Below are positions 5,652-35,826 of a DNA stretch of 35,826 bases, piece by piece. The stretch comes from Syntrophobacterales bacterium (GTDB lineage Bacteria; Desulfobacterota; Syntrophobacteria; BM002). A program made the position numbers and the translations under genes. The first letter of the stretch is position 1, and each line of letters begins with the position of its first letter. The notes under the pieces were generated by a model. It did no database searches. It was not told where the DNA came from and was given only the letters and a program-made list of their open reading frames with translations. The stretch is taken from the NCBI GenBank assembly GCA_050123975.1, contig JASFGC010000003.1, positions 1 to 35,826 of the forward strand. Direction: 5' to 3'.

Positions 5652-5755
5652 ATCTGTTCTCCTTTCGCAGGTTACAATTCTATTCCTGTAACGTTCTTCC
5701 ACCGCTTTAATCTTTTCTATGCAATAAGTACGAAAGCATAAATGTCAACCCGAAA

Positions 5756-5895
5756 CATTTCACATTTTGCATTGCTAATTTCTCATTTATCAATGAAAAC
5801 ATAACAACTGAGAATGAAACTGCGTTAGCACTGAAACAAAATTAACGAATGCTAATTGTGAAATGCTAAATGAGAGATGCGAAATGTGAAATGCT
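5756..5895. repeat. Inverted pair of heptamer arrays (CATTTCA / AAATGYK)
   Basis: catttcacattttgcattgctaatttctcattt ... aatgctaattgtgaaatgctaaatgagagatgcgaaatgtgaaatg. Confidence 0.75.
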
Positions 5896-5896
5896 C

Positions 5897-5912
5897 TGGC
5901 TTAATTATTGCA
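5897..5912 (+). promoter_or_regulatory. Sigma54 -24/-12 promoter
   Basis: TGGCTTAATTATTGCA = GG-N10-GC with TTGCA, about 80 nt upstream of ATG 5994. Confidence 0.65.
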
Positions 5913-7864: not shown

Positions 7865-7962
7865 ATTGCGGATTGGGGAATGCGGATTGTGGAGTTCTAA
7901 TTGAGCCTTAAATTTGTGTTTCAGTTTTTTCAATCCGAAATCCGAAATCCGAAATCCGAAAT
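7865..7962. repeat. Inverted pair of heptamer arrays (ATTGCGG / AATCCGA x4)
   Basis: attgcggattggggaatgcggattgtgga ... aatccgaaatccgaaatccgaaatccgaaat. Confidence 0.8.
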
Positions 7963-9707: not shown

Positions 9708-9857
9708 ACTGGATGCCAAAAGTAGATACTGGATTCTGGATACTCGATGGTCGATAATACAACATGAGAAAAGAAATCAGCATCAAGTCACGCCACCTTT
9801 TCTCATCCAGTATCAAAGGTCTAGTACCTAGTATCGAGTATCAAGGATCTAGTATCT
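9708..9857. repeat. Inverted pair of heptamer arrays (GATACTG / AGTATC type)
   Basis: gatactggattctggatactcgatggtcgat ... atccagtatcaa..tctagtacctagtatcgagtatcaaggatctagtatc. Confidence 0.7.
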
Positions 9858-13860: not shown

Positions 13861-14143
13861 GGCACTAGGCACTAGGAACTAGACACTAGGCACAGAAAGA
13901 CGACGCGGCGACACGGAGAAACGGCGAAACGGGGATTAGCGGTCAAAGATCAGAGGTCAGACGACAGAAGGCAGCCCTCGACAAGCTCGGGACAGGCGGG
14001 CGGCTGGCAGAAAACAATTAGGCACTAGACACATTTCTCATTGAACATTTTTCATCTCTCATTGACTATCGAGAGAAAAAAATGATAGGGGTGCTGGACT
14101 GAAAAACCTTGGAATGTGGAATGACAAATGCGCAATGAGAAAT
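13861..14143. repeat. Compound repeat (GGCACTA heptamers, ACGGVGA octamers, short hairpin), then an inverted CATTTCT/AATG heptamer pair
   Basis: Read directly. 13861-13945 is an insertion-free homologue of 1543-1660. Confidence 0.75.
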
Positions 14144-15154: not shown

Positions 15155-16153
15155 TTATGTAGGCTTGCTTTCATCTAAGTACTGCTCCCCTTTCGCAGCA
15201 ATTTTGTATTCGGGAGGTCGGCCGACCTCAACAGCTATATTTATGTATGCCTGCTCTTTGAGAACATCCAGATAAGGTTCCAATTTGCGTTCAACAATCC
15301 CAAGTAGATCTGACAAATCTTCCAGAGGATAGCCTGTATCACCCGAAGCGGCCAGAAGTTTGAGAACTCTTTTCTGTACACTTTCGGTCTCTTGCGGAGC
15401 ATCTTTCTTCTTGCGACGGAGCCCTTTTACTTTGACCTTCTTCCCGCGTGATGGGCGTGGTTTTTGGGGCTTCGGTTTCGGAGGCTTCGGTTTCGGAGGC
15501 TTCGGTTTCGGAGGTTCTGGTTCGCTGGGCTCCTCTTTCTCTCTTATCTTTTCTTCAATCCTCTCGTCGATTTTCTCTTCTAGCACTTGAGCAATGAAGG
15601 GTGCCGCGTCAGCAGCCTCTAATTCTTGTCCATCCGATGCGGGTTCTCTCTCGAGATGATCGATTGAAATCGGTTCATCACCATGTACAAGCGACACCAA
15701 GGTAGCCCGCAACTCGGCCTTCATGGTGTCATAGGACAGACGCGGAAGCCGTCGGATAGCAAAACGCTTTTTCAAATCTTCAAAAAGTTGCTCCATAAAA
15801 TCATTATCATCAACCTCCATCACCTCAAAGGTGCGAAGGTGTGATGGCAGGCCAATTTTGTTTAGTCCAGAATGGCAGAGGCAGCTGATTGGCAGGCTCT
15901 TGGTCCAGGCACAGCCAAATTCGAAATGGATCCACGGTTGGCGAATTGATTTTGGACTGCAGAGCACCAAGAGAAGATCTGCATCTGTTAGCGCACCATC
16001 GAGCCCTACGAGCCATTTGTCACCAACTCCACCCTCGCCAGAGTTGCTGCTTAGCAATACTTCAGCTTGCCCGAGAAAGGTGGACTCGATAAAGTCCTTC
16101 AGGAGCAACGCAATTAAGGCCTCGTCAGAAATGTGACTAATTAGTATTTTCAA
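15155..16153 (-). CDS. TIR (TIR_2-like) domain protein with a Pro/Lys linker and C-terminal winged-helix-like domain
   Basis: ILISHISDE..., LLVLCSPKSI.QPWIHFEFGCAW (Glu78), PPKPK repeats and a C-terminal VLKLLA...LEDLSDLLG...YLDVL...Y.I...G..YL. GAGGAGG RBS before the TTG. Confidence 0.85.
   Translation of the reverse strand: MKILISHISDEALIALLLKDFIESTFLGQAEVLLSSNSGEGGVGDKWLVGLDGALTDADLLLVLCSPKSIRQPWIHFEFGCAWTKSLPISCLCHSGLNKIGLPSHLRTFEVMEVDDNDFMEQLFEDLKKRFAIRRLPRLSYDTMKAELRATLVSLVHGDEPISIDHLEREPASDGQELEAADAAPFIAQVLEEKIDERIEEKIREKEEPSEPEPPKPKPPKPKPPKPKPQKPRPSRGKKVKVKGLRRKKKDAPQETESVQKRVLKLLAASGDTGYPLEDLSDLLGIVERKLEPYLDVLKEQAYINIAVEVGRPPEYKIAAKGEQYLDESKPT
15467..15514 (-). repeat. Coding 15-bp tandem repeat (PPKPK x3)
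   Basis: ggcttcggtttcgga repeated three times. Confidence 0.9.
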
Positions 16154-17240: not shown

Positions 17241-17324
17241 TTGCAATTTTAGATTGTAGAATGCAGATTGAAGATTGCAACTACAGACCTATGCTCTTAA
17301 ACCTGAAATCTTCAATCTTCAATC
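17241..17324. repeat. Inverted pair of heptamer arrays (AGATTGH / AATCTTC)
   Basis: agattgtagaatgcagattgaagattg ... aaatcttcaatcttcaatc. Confidence 0.7.
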
Positions 17325-27150: not shown

Positions 27151-27211
27151 CCCACATCCCACATCTCACATCCGAAATTCCTCAATTCCAGAATTCCTAA
27201 ATCCCTCAATT
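27151..27211 (+). repeat. TCCCACA heptamers followed by AATTCCTC octamers
   Basis: cccacatcccacatctcacatccgaaattcctcaattccagaattcctaaatccctcaatt. Confidence 0.75.
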
Positions 27212-29231: not shown

Positions 29232-29492
29232 AAAATATCAAACTACAAGCACCAAATTACAAACAAATCTCAAATTCCAATACTCAATGACCCAAAAAAG
29301 GTTTGGGATTTGGAAATTGGGGACCCGCCCGCAGGGTGGGGAGTCCAAGCGTAGCGCGAACAATTTTGGTCATTGTGATTTGCCCTTCGACTTGGCTCAG
29401 GGTGGTGAGTCCTTCGACTTTGCTCAGGACCGTGAGCCTGTCGAACGGCTTGTCGAACCATTTGATATTTGGGATTTGTGATTTGGAATTTC
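29232..29492. repeat. Inverted pair of heptamer arrays (CAAAT.. / ..ATTTG) with inserted hairpins
   Basis: Inserts at 29319-29363 and 29384-29460; the latter contains a nested copy of its own family at 29410-29448. Confidence 0.8.
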
Positions 29493-31549: not shown

Positions 31550-31765
31550 AATCCGGACGCAAAGGACCCGCCTTCGCCATGGCTACGGCGCGGCAGGCCC
31601 GGCTTTGAGCTACCCCCTGAGGGGGCTTCCATACTCTTTCCCCCTTGCGGCAGTCTGCTGGAGTGATGGAGTAGTGGAATAATGGAGTAATGATAGCACC
31701 AATTCAAGCTAAATTCGGGCTTTCGTTTTACCAACACTCCAATACTCCAATACTCCAGTACTCCA
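31550..31765. repeat. Composite repeat with a short REP-like hairpin (31567-31597) and an inverted pair of octamer arrays (TGGAGTAN / AATACTCC)
   Basis: tggagtgatggagtagtggaataatggagtaatg ... caacactccaatactccaatactccagtactcca. Confidence 0.75.
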
Positions 31766-32939: not shown

Positions 32940-33129
32940 ACGACAGTCCGGGTAAGTGGAAAATCTATACATCAACCGATCAAAACGCGCAAGTCAAATC
33001 TCCGAACCAATTTCTAAAGTGAACAACAGGCTTAAAGTGTCTATAGGAGCTAAATTTAGGAATTGGGGAATTGAGGAGTTTTGAAAATGGCTGGGAATGA
33101 GAATGAGCTTGAGTAAATTCACAATCATG

Positions 33130-33313: not shown

Positions 33314-35197
33314 TCAACCTCCGATCTCTTGCATCTTGAGACGCAAATAACTCTCTTGAGCCTTGGGGTTTTCAGGATCCAGATCGAGAACTTTCTGATA
33401 CGTTTTGAGTGCCTTCTCTGTCTTGCCGATCTGTTCATAAAGCCCGGCGAGATGAACATGGTAGTCAATGTTTTTGGGCGCCACTTTCACCAGGGCCTCG
33501 AACTGGTGAATCGCCTCCACCAAAAGATTTCTTTTCTCGTAGGAAATGCCCAAAAAATATCTCAGTTCAGGCTGTTCAGGTGCTTTGCCCACGGCACGGG
33601 CAAACGTCTTGGTCATCTCCTCGTAAGCCTTTAGCTGGTCGTAGAACTCAACAGCCTGAGCGTAATAAGGCCAGTGTTCCGGCCGCAGTTTGATAAGTTC
33701 TTCGAGAACGGTGAGAGCCTTACGAGGTTTTTTCTGCTGGCGATACACCTCCACCAGATATTCCCTGGCATCAATATCCTTTTTGTCCAACTTCAATACC
33801 TGAGAAAAGGCTTTGGCAGCCCGGTCGTATTGTTTCATCTCATAGTAGAGCACTCCCTGGTTGTAATGCACTACCTTGTTATTAGGAGACAGTTTGGCGA
33901 TGGCTTCATAAACAGCCGCAGCCTCTTTGTCCCTGTTTAGGTTTTCGTAAAGATCCACTAGGGCCAGATGAGCTTTCAGTGATTTGGCATTGTCTTTGAT
34001 GAGCCCCTTGAGGGTTTTGATGGCACTCTCATTCTTTTTCCTTTTGCGGTATACTGCTGCCAGTCTGAGTCTGGCATCCACATCTTTGGGCTTACTTTTC
34101 AGGTAAATCAACAGGCTTTTCTCAGCCTGGCGATAATTGCCAATTCTGCTGTATGCCTCACCCAAATTGAGATGGATGAGCGGATTATTAACGCCACCGG
34201 CCAAAGCCCGCTTATAGGAATTAATGGCCTCCCGCCACTCCCCCTGTTGACCATATAATGTTCCCAGATACGTGTGGATCTCAGGTCGATAGGATTTCGG
34301 GAAAGAATTCAAATTGGTGGAAAGAAAAGAAGCGGCTTGCTTCGGGTTCTTTTTGGCATTGAGATATGAGATAAAACCGTAAAAAGGCTCTTTGTCTGTG
34401 CCGCTCTTTCGGATCAGCTTGATATATGCAGTCAGAGCCTTGTTGGTTTTTCCTGCCTTCTGGTAAGCCTCTACCAATTTCTGCAAGATGGGTATGGTAT
34501 CGCTGGTGGCTGCCACCTTCTCATAGGTAGCGGCAGCCTTAGCCCACTGGTCTTGCTCAGCATAGAGTTGAGCCAGGTTTGTCAGTATCAAGGCGTTGTG
34601 CGAAGCCAGACGCGCAGCACGCTCATAATAGCGCACTTTCTGTTCCGAACTTTCGGCCTCCTGTGCCTTCTTAATCCAGTCTCTTGCCCGCAGTCGCACC
34701 ACCATATTGAAGCGACCAATGGACTGAGAGCCGGCCATCACATCCACCACAACCTTCAAAGGGTTCTCACTTTCAAAATCCGGCCAGAACTCCTTTATAT
34801 CCCGACGCCCCTCCAGGAGATCGTTTGCTGAAAATTGCTCGGAAGTCAAGCGCAAGCCCCAGTTGAATTTGCCGTCGGTATGGATATCATCAACTGAGAC
34901 AACATCCTCCGGATGCACCACCAGAGTACCTTCTGCAGGCACTGTATGCGATACGTCATTTACAATAAAAACAACCGAAATCAACTTATTCGGCACGGGC
35001 AACATATTTCTGAGAGCAGTGTAGGGTGTAAAAAAAACACCGTATGTCACCCCAGCAATAACTGCCACAAGCAGCAAGAGCAGAACAGCCCATTTGAGCT
35101 TGCTTGACATTCTACGCCGCCGTTCTCGCGCCTGCAGAGCAGCAAGCCTTTCCTGTTCCAGTCGCCTTATGGGGATTTTCCGTCTCATTGTTTGCAT
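33314..35197 (-). CDS. Membrane-anchored tetratricopeptide repeat protein
   Basis: One N-terminal TM helix and many TPRs (HLNLGEAY, HYNQGVLYY..A...F..VL.LD, YFLG.SY, Y.KVL.LDPEN). Confidence 0.92.
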   Translation of the reverse strand: MQTMRRKIPIRRLEQERLAALQARERRRRMSSKLKWAVLLLLLVAVIAGVTYGVFFTPYTALRNMLPVPNKLISVVFIVNDVSHTVPAEGTLVVHPEDVVSVDDIHTDGKFNWGLRLTSEQFSANDLLEGRRDIKEFWPDFESENPLKVVVDVMAGSQSIGRFNMVVRLRARDWIKKAQEAESSEQKVRYYERAARLASHNALILTNLAQLYAEQDQWAKAAATYEKVAATSDTIPILQKLVEAYQKAGKTNKALTAYIKLIRKSGTDKEPFYGFISYLNAKKNPKQAASFLSTNLNSFPKSYRPEIHTYLGTLYGQQGEWREAINSYKRALAGGVNNPLIHLNLGEAYSRIGNYRQAEKSLLIYLKSKPKDVDARLRLAAVYRKRKKNESAIKTLKGLIKDNAKSLKAHLALVDLYENLNRDKEAAAVYEAIAKLSPNNKVVHYNQGVLYYEMKQYDRAAKAFSQVLKLDKKDIDAREYLVEVYRQQKKPRKALTVLEELIKLRPEHWPYYAQAVEFYDQLKAYEEMTKTFARAVGKAPEQPELRYFLGISYEKRNLLVEAIHQFEALVKVAPKNIDYHVHLAGLYEQIGKTEKALKTYQKVLDLDPENPKAQESYLRLKMQEIGG

Positions 35198-35205
35198 AAT
35201 GATGT

Positions 35206-35245
35206 AATTCAGGAATTTAGGAATTGAGGGATTCAGGAATTCTTG
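35206..35245 (+). repeat. Octamer array (RATTBAGG) downstream of the four-helix-bundle gene
   Basis: aattcagg aatttagg aattgagg gattcagg aattcttg. Confidence 0.85.
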
Positions 35246-35265
35246 GACTTAAAGCCTGTCATAGC

Positions 35266-35640
35266 CTAGTTGCTTGCGTCATAGTCCCGTAGATACTTTC
35301 TGAATCCTTTGACCTGTTTCCGACAATCGGAAGCTAACTCATACACCCAGCCGAACTCACTTTGTGTAACATATTTGCAGTCTAAAGCCCTATAAAACTG
35401 CGATTGCAGCTCACTGCATGATCTTTGCGAATATCCCAGGAACCTTATAAATTCTTTCGTTGATCCATCATCAAAACCCTCGGCGATGTTGTCCATGGTC
35501 GAACCAGCCGACTTCCATACCTGATTTCTAAAAGCGAAATCGTCCTTAAACCTCCCTTTGTTGATTAACTCAAAAACAGCCTGGCATAGCTCTCTTGCCT
35601 TCGACCAACATGGTAACTCTTCGAACCTTTTGTAATTCAT
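35266..35640 (-). CDS. Four helix bundle protein (23S rRNA intervening-sequence protein family)
   Basis: FEEL..W..AREL, DF.F..Q...SA.S.M.NIAEGF......EF.RFL....S..EL.SQ...A.D..Y; the start may be 35640, 35661 or 35673. Confidence 0.93.
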   Translation of the reverse strand: MNYKRFEELPCWSKARELCQAVFELINKGRFKDDFAFRNQVWKSAGSTMDNIAEGFDDGSTKEFIRFLGYSQRSCSELQSQFYRALDCKYVTQSEFGWVYELASDCRKQVKGFRKYLRDYDASN

Positions 35641-35670
35641 CTTTTTCGATGCCCCCATTTTCTGCTTTAT

Positions 35671-35715
35671 CAATCCCTAAATCCCTCAATTCCTCAATCC
35701 CTGAATTCCTCAATC
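35671..35715 (-). repeat. Octamer array upstream of the four-helix-bundle gene, inverted relative to 35206-35245
   Basis: cctaaatc cctcaatt cctcaatc cctgaatt cctcaatc. Confidence 0.85.
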
Positions 35716-35719
35716 TCCT

Positions 35720-35826
35720 TTACAGTCCTACCTTTGCTCTCAAGTTTCGCACTTCACGTGACTTGAGTTGCCGAGTCTCACCTGGCCGCAAATTATCTAG
35801 CTCTATGGGCCCCACCTTAATTCTCT
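35720..35826 (-). CDS. 3' end of an rRNA pseudouridine synthase (RsuA/RluB family), truncated by the window edge
   Basis: Hand translation RIKVGPIELDNLRPGETRQLKSREVRNLRAKVGL* matches the family C-terminal R..IGP..L..L..GE.R.L...EV..L; not in the ORF track. Confidence 0.75.
   Translation of the reverse strand, partial: RIKVGPIELDNLRPGETRQLKSREVRNLRAKVGL

What the first reader, a model, noticed from the sequence alone, without database searches (positions are those of the whole stretch)
35206..35715. Four-helix-bundle gene enclosed by inverted octamer arrays: a possible loaded form of a genome-wide repeat-cassette system
Seen: the gene sits between the pseudouridine synthase and TPR genes, with about five RATTBAGG octamers on each side in inverted orientation. 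The transcript can therefore pair the arms and loop out the ORF. The same geometry without an ORF recurs at 5756-5895, 7865-7962, 9708-9857, 14032-14143, 17241-17324, 29232-29492 and 31659-31765. Solo arrays of the same octamer occur near 27176 and 33053. Known: this family includes proteins encoded in excised 23S rRNA intervening sequences and is structurally related to the DGR accessory protein Avd, a nucleic-acid-binding partner of a reverse transcriptase. Inference: an uncharacterised mobile or RNA-processing system in which inverted microsatellite arms define cassettes and this protein is the cargo or helper.
Basis: partly seen in the sequence, partly recalled or inferred. Interest (0 to 1): 0.75.

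Follow-up and report, generated by a model that had tools for sequence, protein, structure and literature searches.

The report
Repeat-armed four-helix-bundle gene cassette
A small gene of the family first found inside ribosomal-RNA "intervening sequences" sits here between two ordinary genes, wrapped in mirror-image runs of an 8-base repeat, and repeat runs of the same kinds, mostly without the gene, occur about two thousand times in this bacterium's genome.

Summary
A PF05635 four-helix-bundle gene (minus strand, 35266-35640) lies between inverted octamer arrays (35206-35242, 35670-35719), inside a co-directional pseudouridine-synthase/TPR gene pair. All 6 paralogues in this genome have such flanks, each with its own 7-9-nt unit. 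So do 76 of 86 evaluable relatives in the same class and 56 of 76 loci from other phyla, against 92 of 2960 ordinary genes. One relative carries the same package inside a 23S rRNA gene. The arm unit follows protein similarity. Between near-identical copies in different contexts, homology stops at the outer edges of the arms. The unit is therefore arm-gene-arm, an intervening-sequence-type cassette outside rRNA.

This genome is special in one respect: it has 1974 such arrays (2 in a shuffled control), and 1285 of them use units that serve as cassette arms in other genomes. At the nuoG/nuoH junction the ORF-less forms are decayed cassettes. The "loaded versus empty" reading is thus partly right, but probably runs the other way.

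RNase III excision of the paired arms is inferred from rRNA copies, not shown here. How the cassette moves is unknown; I found no reverse transcriptase. This scan has met the cassette before on other DNA (504 notes in 458 genomes). I found no paper that describes it.

The parts
35670..35719 (-). 5' arm in gene sense: about 5.8 tandem octamers (unit GGAATTGA and variants); pairs with the 3' arm
   Evidence: TRF; pattern; paired in the MFE fold
35641..35669 (-). Leader between arm and start codon. It holds the G-run motif GGGGCA (35650-35655 on the + strand as its complement), found before the ATG in 49 of 76 class relatives and 0 of 56 loci from other phyla.
35266..35640 (-). Four-helix-bundle gene, 124 aa (alternative ATG at 35658, 130 aa); PF05635 / 23S rRNA intervening-sequence protein family
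   Evidence: Pfam 4.6e-25; PDB 2gsc E 3.8e-6; AF2 pLDDT 95.1; Foldseek 2gsc TM 0.91, 2rld 0.85, Avd 4dwl 0.78
35206..35242 (-). 3' arm in gene sense: 4.6 octamers, reverse complement of the 5' arm
35720..35826 (-). Last 34 codons and stop of the upstream S4 + pseudouridine-synthase gene (RsuA/RluB type), cut by the contig end
   Evidence: orthologues
33314..35197 (-). Downstream TPR-repeat gene, 627 aa. In three relatives it starts 5-19 nt after the synthase stop.
5747..5902 (.). ORF-less inverted heptamer arrays (48-nt arms, 75% complementary, 60 nt apart)
7865..7955 (.). ORF-less inverted heptamer arrays (25-nt arms, 80%, 41 nt apart); the unit is that of the C249 cassettes
9724..9857 (.). 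ORF-less inverted heptamer arrays (36-nt arms, 78%, 62 nt apart)
14033..14143 (.). ORF-less inverted arrays (31-nt arms, 81%, 49 nt apart)
17259..17324 (.). ORF-less inverted heptamer arrays (21-nt arms, 86%, 24 nt apart)
29263..29491 (.). ORF-less inverted arrays (16-19-nt arms, 79-83%, 67-188 nt apart), around a 27-nt tandem repeat
31658..31765 (.). ORF-less inverted octamer arrays (unit TGGAGTAA; 26-47-nt arms, 72-85%); the unit is the arm of cassettes L090/L091/L093 in relatives
27176..27211 (.). Solo array of the same octamer as the cassette arms (4.5 copies)
33053..33077 (.). Solo array of the same octamer (3.1 copies)

Best explanation
The 514 bases 35206-35719 are one copy of a discrete insertable cassette of the intervening-sequence (IVS) type: 5' arm of 4-6 tandem 7-9-nt units, short leader, about 120-aa four-helix-bundle gene, 3' arm that is the reverse complement of the first. 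Here it lies inside a co-directional gene pair (pseudouridine synthase, then TPR protein) that abuts in more distant members of the genus.

Shown:
- The arm-gene-arm layout is the rule for this protein family in this genome, its class and other phyla, including a copy inside a 23S rRNA gene.
- Each protein branch keeps its own arm unit.
- Copies in different contexts share sequence exactly from arm to arm.
- The protein is under purifying selection.
- This genus has multiplied arm-type arrays to about 2000 per genome.

Inferred:
- In the operon transcript the arms pair into a stem of about 38 bp. RNase III cuts this stem, as it does for the rRNA copies. That releases the gene-bearing loop and makes the insert tolerable inside operons and rRNA.
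- Many of the ORF-less hairpins and solo arrays are what remains, or what spread, after the gene was lost.

Unknown: the enzyme or route by which the cassette reaches new sites.
For: Layout in this genome. All 6 PF05635 genes of this genome have inverted tandem arrays, each with a different unit. By a shared-8-mer test, 5 of the 6 are flagged, against 170 of 3372 rough ORFs.

Layout in relatives.
- By local alignment of the upstream 330 nt against the reverse complement of the downstream 330 nt, 76 of 86 evaluable class relatives score 30 or more, and 66 also show a clear 7-10-nt period. The same test gives 92 and 53 of 2960 background ORFs; median scores are 41 and 18.
- Among 76 evaluable loci from Bacteroidota, Verrucomicrobia, Chloroflexi, Acidobacteriota, Planctomycetes, Proteobacteria and others, 56 score 30 or more and 49 pass the strict test.
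- Locus L024 is a bacterial LSU rRNA gene (2534.6 bits) with the same heptamer-armed gene inside it.

Arms belong to the gene.
- The share of locus pairs with the same arm unit falls with protein identity: 23 of 34 at 90% or more, 49 of 140 at 75-90%, 50 of 808 at 60-75%, 66 of 2786 at 45-60%, 6 of 4048 at 30-45%, 0 of 1049 below 30%.
- Relatives of the window's gene at 76% and 58% identity have the same GGAATTGA arms.
- Ten of the 23 same-arm pairs at 90% identity or more have non-homologous flanks.
- In 6 of 9 close pairs inspected, similarity begins within about 15 nt of the outer edge of the 5' arm and ends within about 15 nt of that of the 3' arm.

Protein. dN/dS has a median of 0.089 in 63 pairs, and 61 pairs are below 0.5.

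RNA and RNase III.
- The arms pair in the predicted RNA fold, z -4.12.
- An RNase III gene is present on contig C374.
- RNase III excision of the S23p-bearing IVS stem, and tandem heptamers in its 5' part, are reported for Coxiella (PMC4990558, passages read).

Link to the genome-wide arrays.
- There are 1974 strict arrays, against 2 in a shuffled genome.
- Of these, 1285 share half or more of their 8-mers with cassette arms of other genomes; the reversed-sequence control gives 10.
- ORF-less hairpins have the same intrinsic polarity as cassettes: the G-rich arm comes first in 120 against 33, and in cassettes in 66 against 10. Distant inverted pairs give 69 against 64.
- At the nuoG/nuoH junction the intact gene is in 0 of 11 other genus genomes. 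Arm-type arrays persist in 5 of them by blastn. G007 keeps a 102-nt remnant of arm end, leader and first codons (81% identity, E 4e-23).
Against: - No direct RNA evidence was obtained for this locus.
- Mismatches between the arms show no excess of G:U-type over A:C-type pairs on the sense strand: 95 against 87 in the class set and 65 against 76 in the wide set. So nothing shows that pairing is selected in the sense RNA rather than kept up at the DNA level.
- The cassette encodes no recombinase, I saw no target-site duplication, and no reverse transcriptase was found. Mobility rests on comparison alone.
- The leader motif is not enriched beside solo arrays: 22 of 1841, about the 1.1% expected. 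Most solo arrays therefore cannot be recognised as decayed cassettes.
- At the window's own junction, arm-type arrays occur without the gene in G004 and G009 by blastn and in G017, G010 and G001 by eye. This fits loss, but equally a pre-existing array.
- The correlation of array density with gene number (rho 0.70-0.73, n = 17) rests mostly on one genus, and related genomes are not independent. G027 and G020 have the gene but 0 arrays in the 50-100 kb sampled.
- In Coxiella the authors argue that the ORF is not translated and is decaying (PMC4990558).
Confidence: 0.6

Rival explanations
1. Cognate-repeat binding. The four-helix-bundle protein is a ring-shaped oligomer that binds its own tandem repeat units as RNA or single-stranded DNA. 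Each branch recognises its own 7-9-nt unit. The gene-bearing cassette is then the autonomous form, and the ORF-less hairpins and arrays are non-autonomous sites on which the protein acts in trans (spread, protection or regulation). This can hold together with RNase III processing.
For: - Arm unit tracks protein identity.
- Arms hold a median of 4.4 units (IQR 3.7-5.1 in the class set, 3.6-5.3 in the wide set). The solved relatives 2gsc and 2rld each have five chains, and the Xanthomonas protein is described as a homopentameric toroid (PMC4990558, passage citing Lin 2006).
- 1285 of 1974 arrays use cassette-arm units.
- Avd, the structural relative, works on RNA together with a polymerase (8ube).
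- The protein is under strong purifying selection.
- The four class genomes without the gene have almost no arrays.
Against: - The co-variation is equally explained by linkage, since arms and gene are inherited together.
- Abundant units of this genome (for example GCGCATA and GCATAGG types) have no cognate gene among its 6 copies, although the assembly is only 86.6% complete.
- An arm length of 30-35 nt is also what a double-strand-specific RNase would need.
- No binding data exist.
Confidence: 0.3
2. Inverted arrays are independent, pre-existing intergenic hairpins, and the gene alone inserts into hairpin loops. The arms are then the target, not part of the element.
For: - rRNA copies sit at the tip of a natural rRNA hairpin (PMC4990558).
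- Junctions in relatives hold one arm type without the gene.
- Other hairpins lie nested between older arms: G011 and G014 at nuoG/nuoH, and G014 at the C4 site.
- Metagenome contigs hold the same octamer arms around loops of 22-39 nt.
Against: - In other phyla strict arrays are nearly confined to the cassette: 111 near 70 genes, against 6 in 87 kb outside.
- Arm units follow the protein down to about 45-60% identity.
- Sequence similarity between copies in different contexts includes the arms and stops at their outer edge.
- G007 shows loss of the gene from between the arms.
Confidence: 0.12
3. Chance. In a genome with an array about every 2 kb, any small intergenic gene will often lie between arrays.
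For: 3898 lenient arrays cover 3.1% of the genome. Five per cent of rough ORFs have flanks that share 8-mers in the inverted sense, and 5% in the direct sense.
Against: - 88% of the family's loci pass the arm test, against 3.1% of background ORFs.
- The layout holds in array-poor phyla.
- No other gene family recurs between matching arrays. The other recurrent sets were spurious ORFs in a MITE-like repeat, transposase-like genes with true terminal repeats, and two FKBP-like genes (these three labels are my own reading of the sequences, not family scans).
Confidence: 0.01
4. Retroelement accessory. The protein works like Avd with a reverse transcriptase, and the arrays are products of reiterative copying.
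For: Fold similarity to Avd: 4dwl TM 0.78, and 8ube chain D TM 0.80. PF05635 is the commonest family next to DGR reverse transcriptases (PMC10053308, passage read).
Against: No RVT_1 match in G000, G002, G012, G013 or G018 (completeness 86.6-94%), which carry 1-14 cassettes each. The control genomes did give matches. No template/variable repeat pair lies next to the gene.
Confidence: 0.03

Closest known systems
ORF-bearing intervening sequences of 23S rRNA (Coxiella burnetii helix-45 IVS with S23p; also reported for Leptospira and others; PMC4990558)
   Same: Same protein family. Terminal inverted repeats form a long stem around the ORF. Tandem heptamers lie in the 5' part of the Coxiella element. 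A relative of this genome (L024) has the identical layout inside its 23S rRNA gene.
   Different: The window's copy lies between protein-coding genes of an operon, not in rRNA. Its arms are wholly made of tandem octamers. Excision by RNase III is not shown here. The ORF family is under purifying selection, whereas the Coxiella ORF is described as decaying.
Paired tandem octa-/heptanucleotide sites of Geobacter metallireducens, read as 'global regulator binding sites' (Aklujkar et al. 2009, PMC2700814)
   Same: 24 + 21 + 8 pairs of sites on opposite strands, each made of 3-5 tandem 7-9-nt units, at variable distance, in intergenic regions including inside operons. One unit (TCTCCGTS) resembles the arms of this genome's C322 cassette.
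   Different: In the passages I read, the paper does not mention a four-helix-bundle gene between the sites and proposes IHF/HU binding. Its supplementary tables are PDFs that I could not read, so I cannot say whether such genes lie between those pairs.
Avd, accessory protein of diversity-generating retroelements (PDB 4dwl, 8ube)
   Same: Four-helix-bundle fold (TM 0.78-0.80). It is grouped with the IVS proteins in CDD according to PMC10053308.
   Different: 6-7% sequence identity in the structural alignment. No reverse transcriptase in these genomes. No template/variable repeats.
Short tandemly repeated heptamers of bacteria (TAACTGA repeats of Beggiatoaceae, PMC4679880; cyanobacterial STRR, recalled)
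   Same: Abundant intergenic tandem heptamers, many per genome, with a patchy taxonomic distribution.
   Different: Those are described as direct repeats in one orientation upstream of start codons. No link to this gene family is made in the passages I read.
Transposon / MITE pairs
   Same: A gene-bearing unit with terminal inverted repeats, plus many gene-less copies of the termini.
   Different: No transposase, no target-site duplication seen. The termini are tandem arrays that differ between branches.

Membership tests
PF05635 / 23S rRNA intervening-sequence protein (four-helix-bundle protein) | Match to the family profile above the curated cut-off | tested here: met
   88.3 bits against a cut-off of 33.8, E 4.6e-25, profile positions 1-105 of 106
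PF05635 / 23S rRNA intervening-sequence protein (four-helix-bundle protein) | Up-down four-helix-bundle fold like 2gsc / 2rld | tested here: met
   AF2 mean pLDDT 95.1, pTM 0.85; Foldseek 2gsc TM 0.91, rmsd 1.6; 2rld TM 0.85
PF05635 / 23S rRNA intervening-sequence protein (four-helix-bundle protein) | Homopentameric ring | not tested
   Five chains in 2gsc and 2rld; pentamer stated in PMC4990558. The tool takes at most 4 copies.
23S rRNA intervening sequence (IVS) element | Inserted in a 23S rRNA gene (helix 25 or 45) | tested here: not met
   The window copy lies between the synthase and TPR genes. It is met only by relative L024.
23S rRNA intervening sequence (IVS) element | Terminal inverted repeats that form a stem enclosing the ORF | tested here: met
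   Arms paired in the MFE and centroid structures, z -4.12
23S rRNA intervening sequence (IVS) element | Excised from the precursor by RNase III | not testable with these tools
   An RNase III gene is present. The RNA contigs gave no usable cover.
Diversity-generating retroelement (Avd role) | Reverse transcriptase and template/variable repeats next to the gene | tested here: not met
   No RVT_1 match in 5 of 5 genomes; the neighbours are a pseudouridine synthase and a TPR protein
Transposable element with terminal inverted repeats | Element-encoded transposase or recombinase | tested here: not met
   The only ORF is the 124-aa four-helix bundle
Transposable element with terminal inverted repeats | Near-identical copies in different genomic contexts, with sharp ends | tested here: met
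   10 of 23 same-arm pairs at 90% identity or more lack flank homology; boundaries lie at the arm edges
Transposable element with terminal inverted repeats | Target-site duplication | tested here: inconclusive
   None seen in 9 pairs inspected by eye; not searched systematically
CRISPR array | Repeats separated by unique spacers | tested here: not met
   Head-to-tail units without spacers

The most novel reading that the evidence does not exclude
The four-helix-bundle proteins are sequence-specific binders of tandem 7-9-nt repeats, roughly one unit per subunit of the ring, and each branch is matched to its own unit. The arm-gene-arm cassette is then the autonomous form of a very widespread, enzyme-less mobile element. 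The puzzling families of tandem heptamer and octamer arrays in bacterial genomes would be its gene-less offspring: here about 2000 per genome, and elsewhere the Geobacter 'global regulator sites' and perhaps the cyanobacterial and Beggiatoa heptamers.
Probability: 0.22. Interest if true: 0.9.

Novelty: new variant of a known kind. Interest (0 to 1): 0.7.

Why it matters
The ORF of the rRNA intervening sequences has had no function for about thirty years, and its elements were treated as oddities of rRNA. This genome shows three things.
- The rRNA form is one placement of a general cassette that also sits inside ordinary operons.
- Each protein branch carries its own repeat unit. That gives a direct binding experiment to try.
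- A genome-wide population of about 2000 short tandem arrays, a kind of sequence long noticed and never explained, shares its repertoire of units and its hairpin polarity with the cassette arms.

If the link is causal, it explains the origin of a common class of bacterial intergenic repeats. It also warns annotators that these arrays are neither regulator sites nor CRISPR-like arrays.

Tried and rejected
1. RNA evidence. Six metatranscriptome runs hold a small share of the stretch, and three were laid. Their contigs lie on the TPR start and on the arms only, with none on the ORF. These are contigs, so this is not evidence for or against transcription.
   - The 'joints' that skip 429-448 nt have 21-35-nt sides inside the arrays and unrelated letters between. 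They are other loci with the same octamer arms and short loops, not excision of this cassette.
   - In DNA run X3 the contig over the cassette has depth 14.9, against about 44 on both flanks. At most this is a weak hint of heterogeneity.
2. Wobble test for RNA-level selection: no asymmetry.
3. I first read 'G-rich arm upstream of the gene' as a polarity relative to the gene, then withdrew it. An inverted pair reads the same on both strands, so this is a property of the hairpin itself. I considered that a C-rich arm transcribed first would expose a Rho loading site. I did not test this, and the bias is strongest for short loops (70 against 5), which does not favour the idea.
4. Leader motif GGGGCA beside solo arrays: not enriched.
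5. A protein search for ORF remnants at 29 junction loci found only the known genes. The G007 remnant appeared only by DNA comparison.
6. Other gene families between matching arrays: none.
7. Rfam on 35100-35826: only a chance-level match, E 0.81. Promoter and terminator scan: at the shuffle level.
8. A 16-sequence alignment was too diverse for the search for related loci; a 4-sequence alignment worked.
9. Literature. Searches found no paper that links this gene family to flanking tandem-repeat arms. [quoted passage not shown]
Full report
WHAT IS AT THE COORDINATES

The window is a whole contig (C3, 35,826 bp) of a 3.64-Mb, 441-contig assembly with GC 0.498 and completeness 86.6%.

On the minus strand, 35266-35640 encodes a 124-aa protein (alternative start at 35658). 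It matches PF05635, the 23S rRNA intervening-sequence protein family, at E 4.6e-25 and 88.3 bits against a cut-off of 33.8. Its closest solved relative by sequence is 2gsc (E 3.8e-6). An AlphaFold2 model built on 16 relatives has mean pLDDT 95.1. The model superposes on 2gsc (TM 0.91), 2rld (TM 0.85) and, more distantly, on Avd (4dwl TM 0.78; 8ube chain D TM 0.80).

The gene is bracketed by two period-8 arrays. One is at 35206-35242 (4.6 copies) and the other, its reverse complement, at 35670-35719 (5.8 copies). Nine of the window's 18 RATTBAGG matches lie in them.

Upstream on the same strand are the last 34 codons of a gene. In relatives this gene is a full S4 + PseudoU_synth_2 protein. Downstream is a 627-aa TPR protein. 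The sense RNA folds with the arms paired into one long stem (-155.7 kcal/mol, z -4.12).

IS IT MORE THAN CHANCE?

This genome is very rich in short tandem arrays.
- TRF gives 4766 rows, 2484 of them with period 7.
- Merged, these make 3898 arrays.
- Under a strict rule (period 7-9, at least 3.5 copies) there are 1974 arrays, against 2 in a shuffled genome.

A control was therefore essential. All six PF05635 genes of the genome lie between inverted arrays, each pair with its own unit. A shared-8-mer test flags 5 of the 6, against 170 of 3372 rough ORFs. It flags 183 for direct matches, so the background comes from common units, not from hairpins. No other gene family recurs between matching arrays.

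THE LAYOUT IS FAMILY-WIDE

PF05635 is found in 27 of 31 genomes of the class sample, G000 included. I fetched all places and located the domains with a profile of my own. I then aligned the 330 nt upstream of each domain with the reverse complement of the 330 nt downstream.
- Of 86 evaluable genes, 76 score 30 or more, and 66 also show a 7-10-nt period.
- Of 2960 background ORFs of this genome, 92 and 53 do. Median scores are 41 and 18.

A scan of one genome per species returned 80 loci, mostly from Bacteroidota. Others came from Verrucomicrobia, Chloroflexi, Acidobacteriota, Planctomycetes, Alpha- and Gammaproteobacteria, Ignavibacteria and a cyanobacterium, and several were cultured strains. 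Of 76 evaluable, 56 score 30 or more and 49 pass the strict test.

Arms are 32-35 nt at the median, hold 4.4 units, and lie about 435-449 nt apart.

Locus L024 of a class relative is a large-subunit rRNA gene (2534.6 bits) carrying the same heptamer-armed gene. From my memory of the E. coli sequence, the insert sits at the helix-45 position, the site named for Coxiella in PMC4990558. That paper (passages read) reports a 28-bp terminal stem, RNase III excision in vitro, and 2-3 tandem GACAGAT heptamers before the ORF.

THE ARMS BELONG TO THE GENE

The share of locus pairs with the same arm unit falls steadily with protein identity:
- 23 of 34 at 90% identity or more
- 49 of 140 at 75-90%
- 50 of 808 at 60-75%
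- 66 of 2786 at 45-60%
- 6 of 4048 at 30-45%
- 0 of 1049 below 30%

The window gene's relatives at 76% (a Desulfatiglandales MAG) and 58% identity carry the same GGAATTGA arms.

Ten of the 23 same-arm pairs at 90% identity or more have flanks with no detectable homology. They include two copies on one contig of this genome (C249) and two in G004. In 6 of 9 close pairs inspected, similarity begins within about 15 nt of the outer edge of one arm and ends within about 15 nt of that of the other. I saw no duplicated target.

The ORF is under purifying selection: median dN/dS is 0.089 in 63 pairs, with 61 below 0.5. The unit arm-gene-arm is therefore inherited, and relocated, as a whole.

EMPTY SITES

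(a) Synthase/TPR junction.
- The gene is present in G000 and G014. It is absent in 14 further genomes, and G001 is unresolved because of a contig end.
- In G016, G002 and G006 the two genes are 5-19 nt apart, so the ancestral state is an operon without spacer.
- Arm-type octamers occur without the gene in G004 and G009 by blastn, and in G017, G010 and G001 by eye.

(b) nuoG/nuoH junction, which holds the C19 cassette.
- An intact gene is present in 0 of 11 other genomes.
- Arm-type arrays are present at the junction in 5 of them by blastn.
- G007 keeps both arms plus a 102-nt remnant (81% identity, E 4e-23) of arm end, leader and the first codons, inverted relative to nuoH.
- Other hairpins are nested between the old arms.

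(c) C4 site. G014 has a single unit on each side where G000 has 4-5, and a different hairpin lies between them.

So arms outlive the gene, arrays expand and contract, and these junctions are hot spots for further hairpins.

LINK TO THE GENOME-WIDE ARRAYS

- Of the 1974 strict arrays, 1285 share at least half of their 8-mers with cassette arms of other class genomes. The reversed-sequence control gives 10. With arms from other phyla the figure is 39, against a control of 17.
- Inverted array pairs closer than 300 nt number 159, against 43 direct pairs. Beyond 500 nt the two kinds are about equal.
- ORF-less hairpins share an intrinsic polarity with cassettes: the G-rich arm comes first in 120 against 33. 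In cassettes it is 66 against 10 (class set) and 38 against 12 (wide set). Distant inverted pairs give 69 against 64.
- Outside the cassette, strict arrays occur at 0.36 per kb in class relatives but only 0.069 per kb in other phyla (6 in 87 kb). Near the gene there are about 1.6 per locus in both sets.
- In samples of 26-100 kb from 16 class genomes, the genus has 0.13-0.37 arrays per kb (G000 as a whole 0.54) and other families 0-0.06. The four genomes without PF05635 have 2 arrays in 279 kb.
- Spearman rho against gene number is 0.70-0.73 with n = 17. The genomes are related, and some samples came from contigs that hold the gene.

WHAT SPEAKS AGAINST, OR IS MISSING

- Arm mismatches show no sense-strand excess of G:U-type pairs.
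- The leader motif GGGGCA occurs in 49 of 76 class loci and 0 of 56 wide loci. It is not enriched beside solo arrays.
- No reverse transcriptase was found in five genomes.
- No known RNA family matches the region.
- No promoter stands out.
- The RNA data gave no usable cover.

READING

This is an IVS-type cassette sitting in an operon. The step from paired arms to RNase III excision is inferred from the rRNA copies and from the presence of the enzyme. The route of movement is unknown. A binding relation between the ring-shaped protein and its own repeat units is an attractive idea and is not excluded.

KNOWN OR NEW

The rRNA IVS with its ORF is known. Paired tandem octa- and heptanucleotide sites were described in Geobacter metallireducens as putative regulator sites (PMC2700814, passages read). 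Its supplementary PDFs could not be read. Four searches of the paper library found nothing that links the gene family to such arms.

Earlier agents of this scan have described the cassette many times on other DNA, and once on another contig of this genome. My tests agree with them. What they add for this genome is the quantitative link between the cassette arms and about 2000 arrays, and evidence that ORF-less forms arise by loss of the gene.

Noticed in passing
G000 contigs C149:6020-6271, C182:2490-2813, C20:8188-8574, C22:17959-18213, C8:22247-22489: A MITE-like repeat with terminal inverted ends (about 20 nt, beginning TAGCCCGGATAT) gives spurious related ORFs at five or more places.
   Followed up: partly
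G000 contigs C99:4470-5435, C426:830-1843, C171:3317-4333, C184, C104: A family of 190-340-aa ORFs flanked by true inverted repeats (15-27 shared 8-mers). By eye they look like REP-associated or IS200-type tyrosine transposases with a C-terminal DNA-binding tail. They were not scanned against Pfam.
   Followed up: no
L016 and L236-L237 (G028:C16, C1): One relative has giant arms: about 207 nt of an AGTCATTG-type octamer on one side of its four-helix-bundle gene, and contigs that begin with 120-300 nt of the same array.
   Followed up: no
L070, L075, L080, L083, L084: One branch of the family has arms that are a single 20-22-nt inverted repeat rather than a tandem array.
   Followed up: no
L291 (G007:C2, nuoG/nuoH junction): The remnant of the cassette interior is inverted relative to the G000 copy while the arms keep their places. 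This is what recombination between the inverted arms would produce.
   Followed up: partly
window 15468-15514 and 29384-29444: A perfect 15-nt tandem repeat (3.1 copies, 100% matches) and a 27-nt tandem repeat (2.3 copies) stand out from the 7-9-nt arrays.
   Followed up: no
window 34900-35826 in DNA run X3: The contig covering the cassette has depth 14.9, while the contigs on both flanks have about 44. This may mean that only part of the population carries the gene, or that flanks of related strains collapse together.
   Followed up: no
PMC10910872, figure legend: [quoted passage not shown] The flanking tandem arrays of this cassette might be what array finders picked up; I did not check this.
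   Followed up: no
G000:C4:27267-27442: The C4 cassette has a second copy of its 5' arm with the start of the leader about 110 nt upstream of the functional one. This looks like a partial duplication or the stump of an older copy.
   Followed up: no
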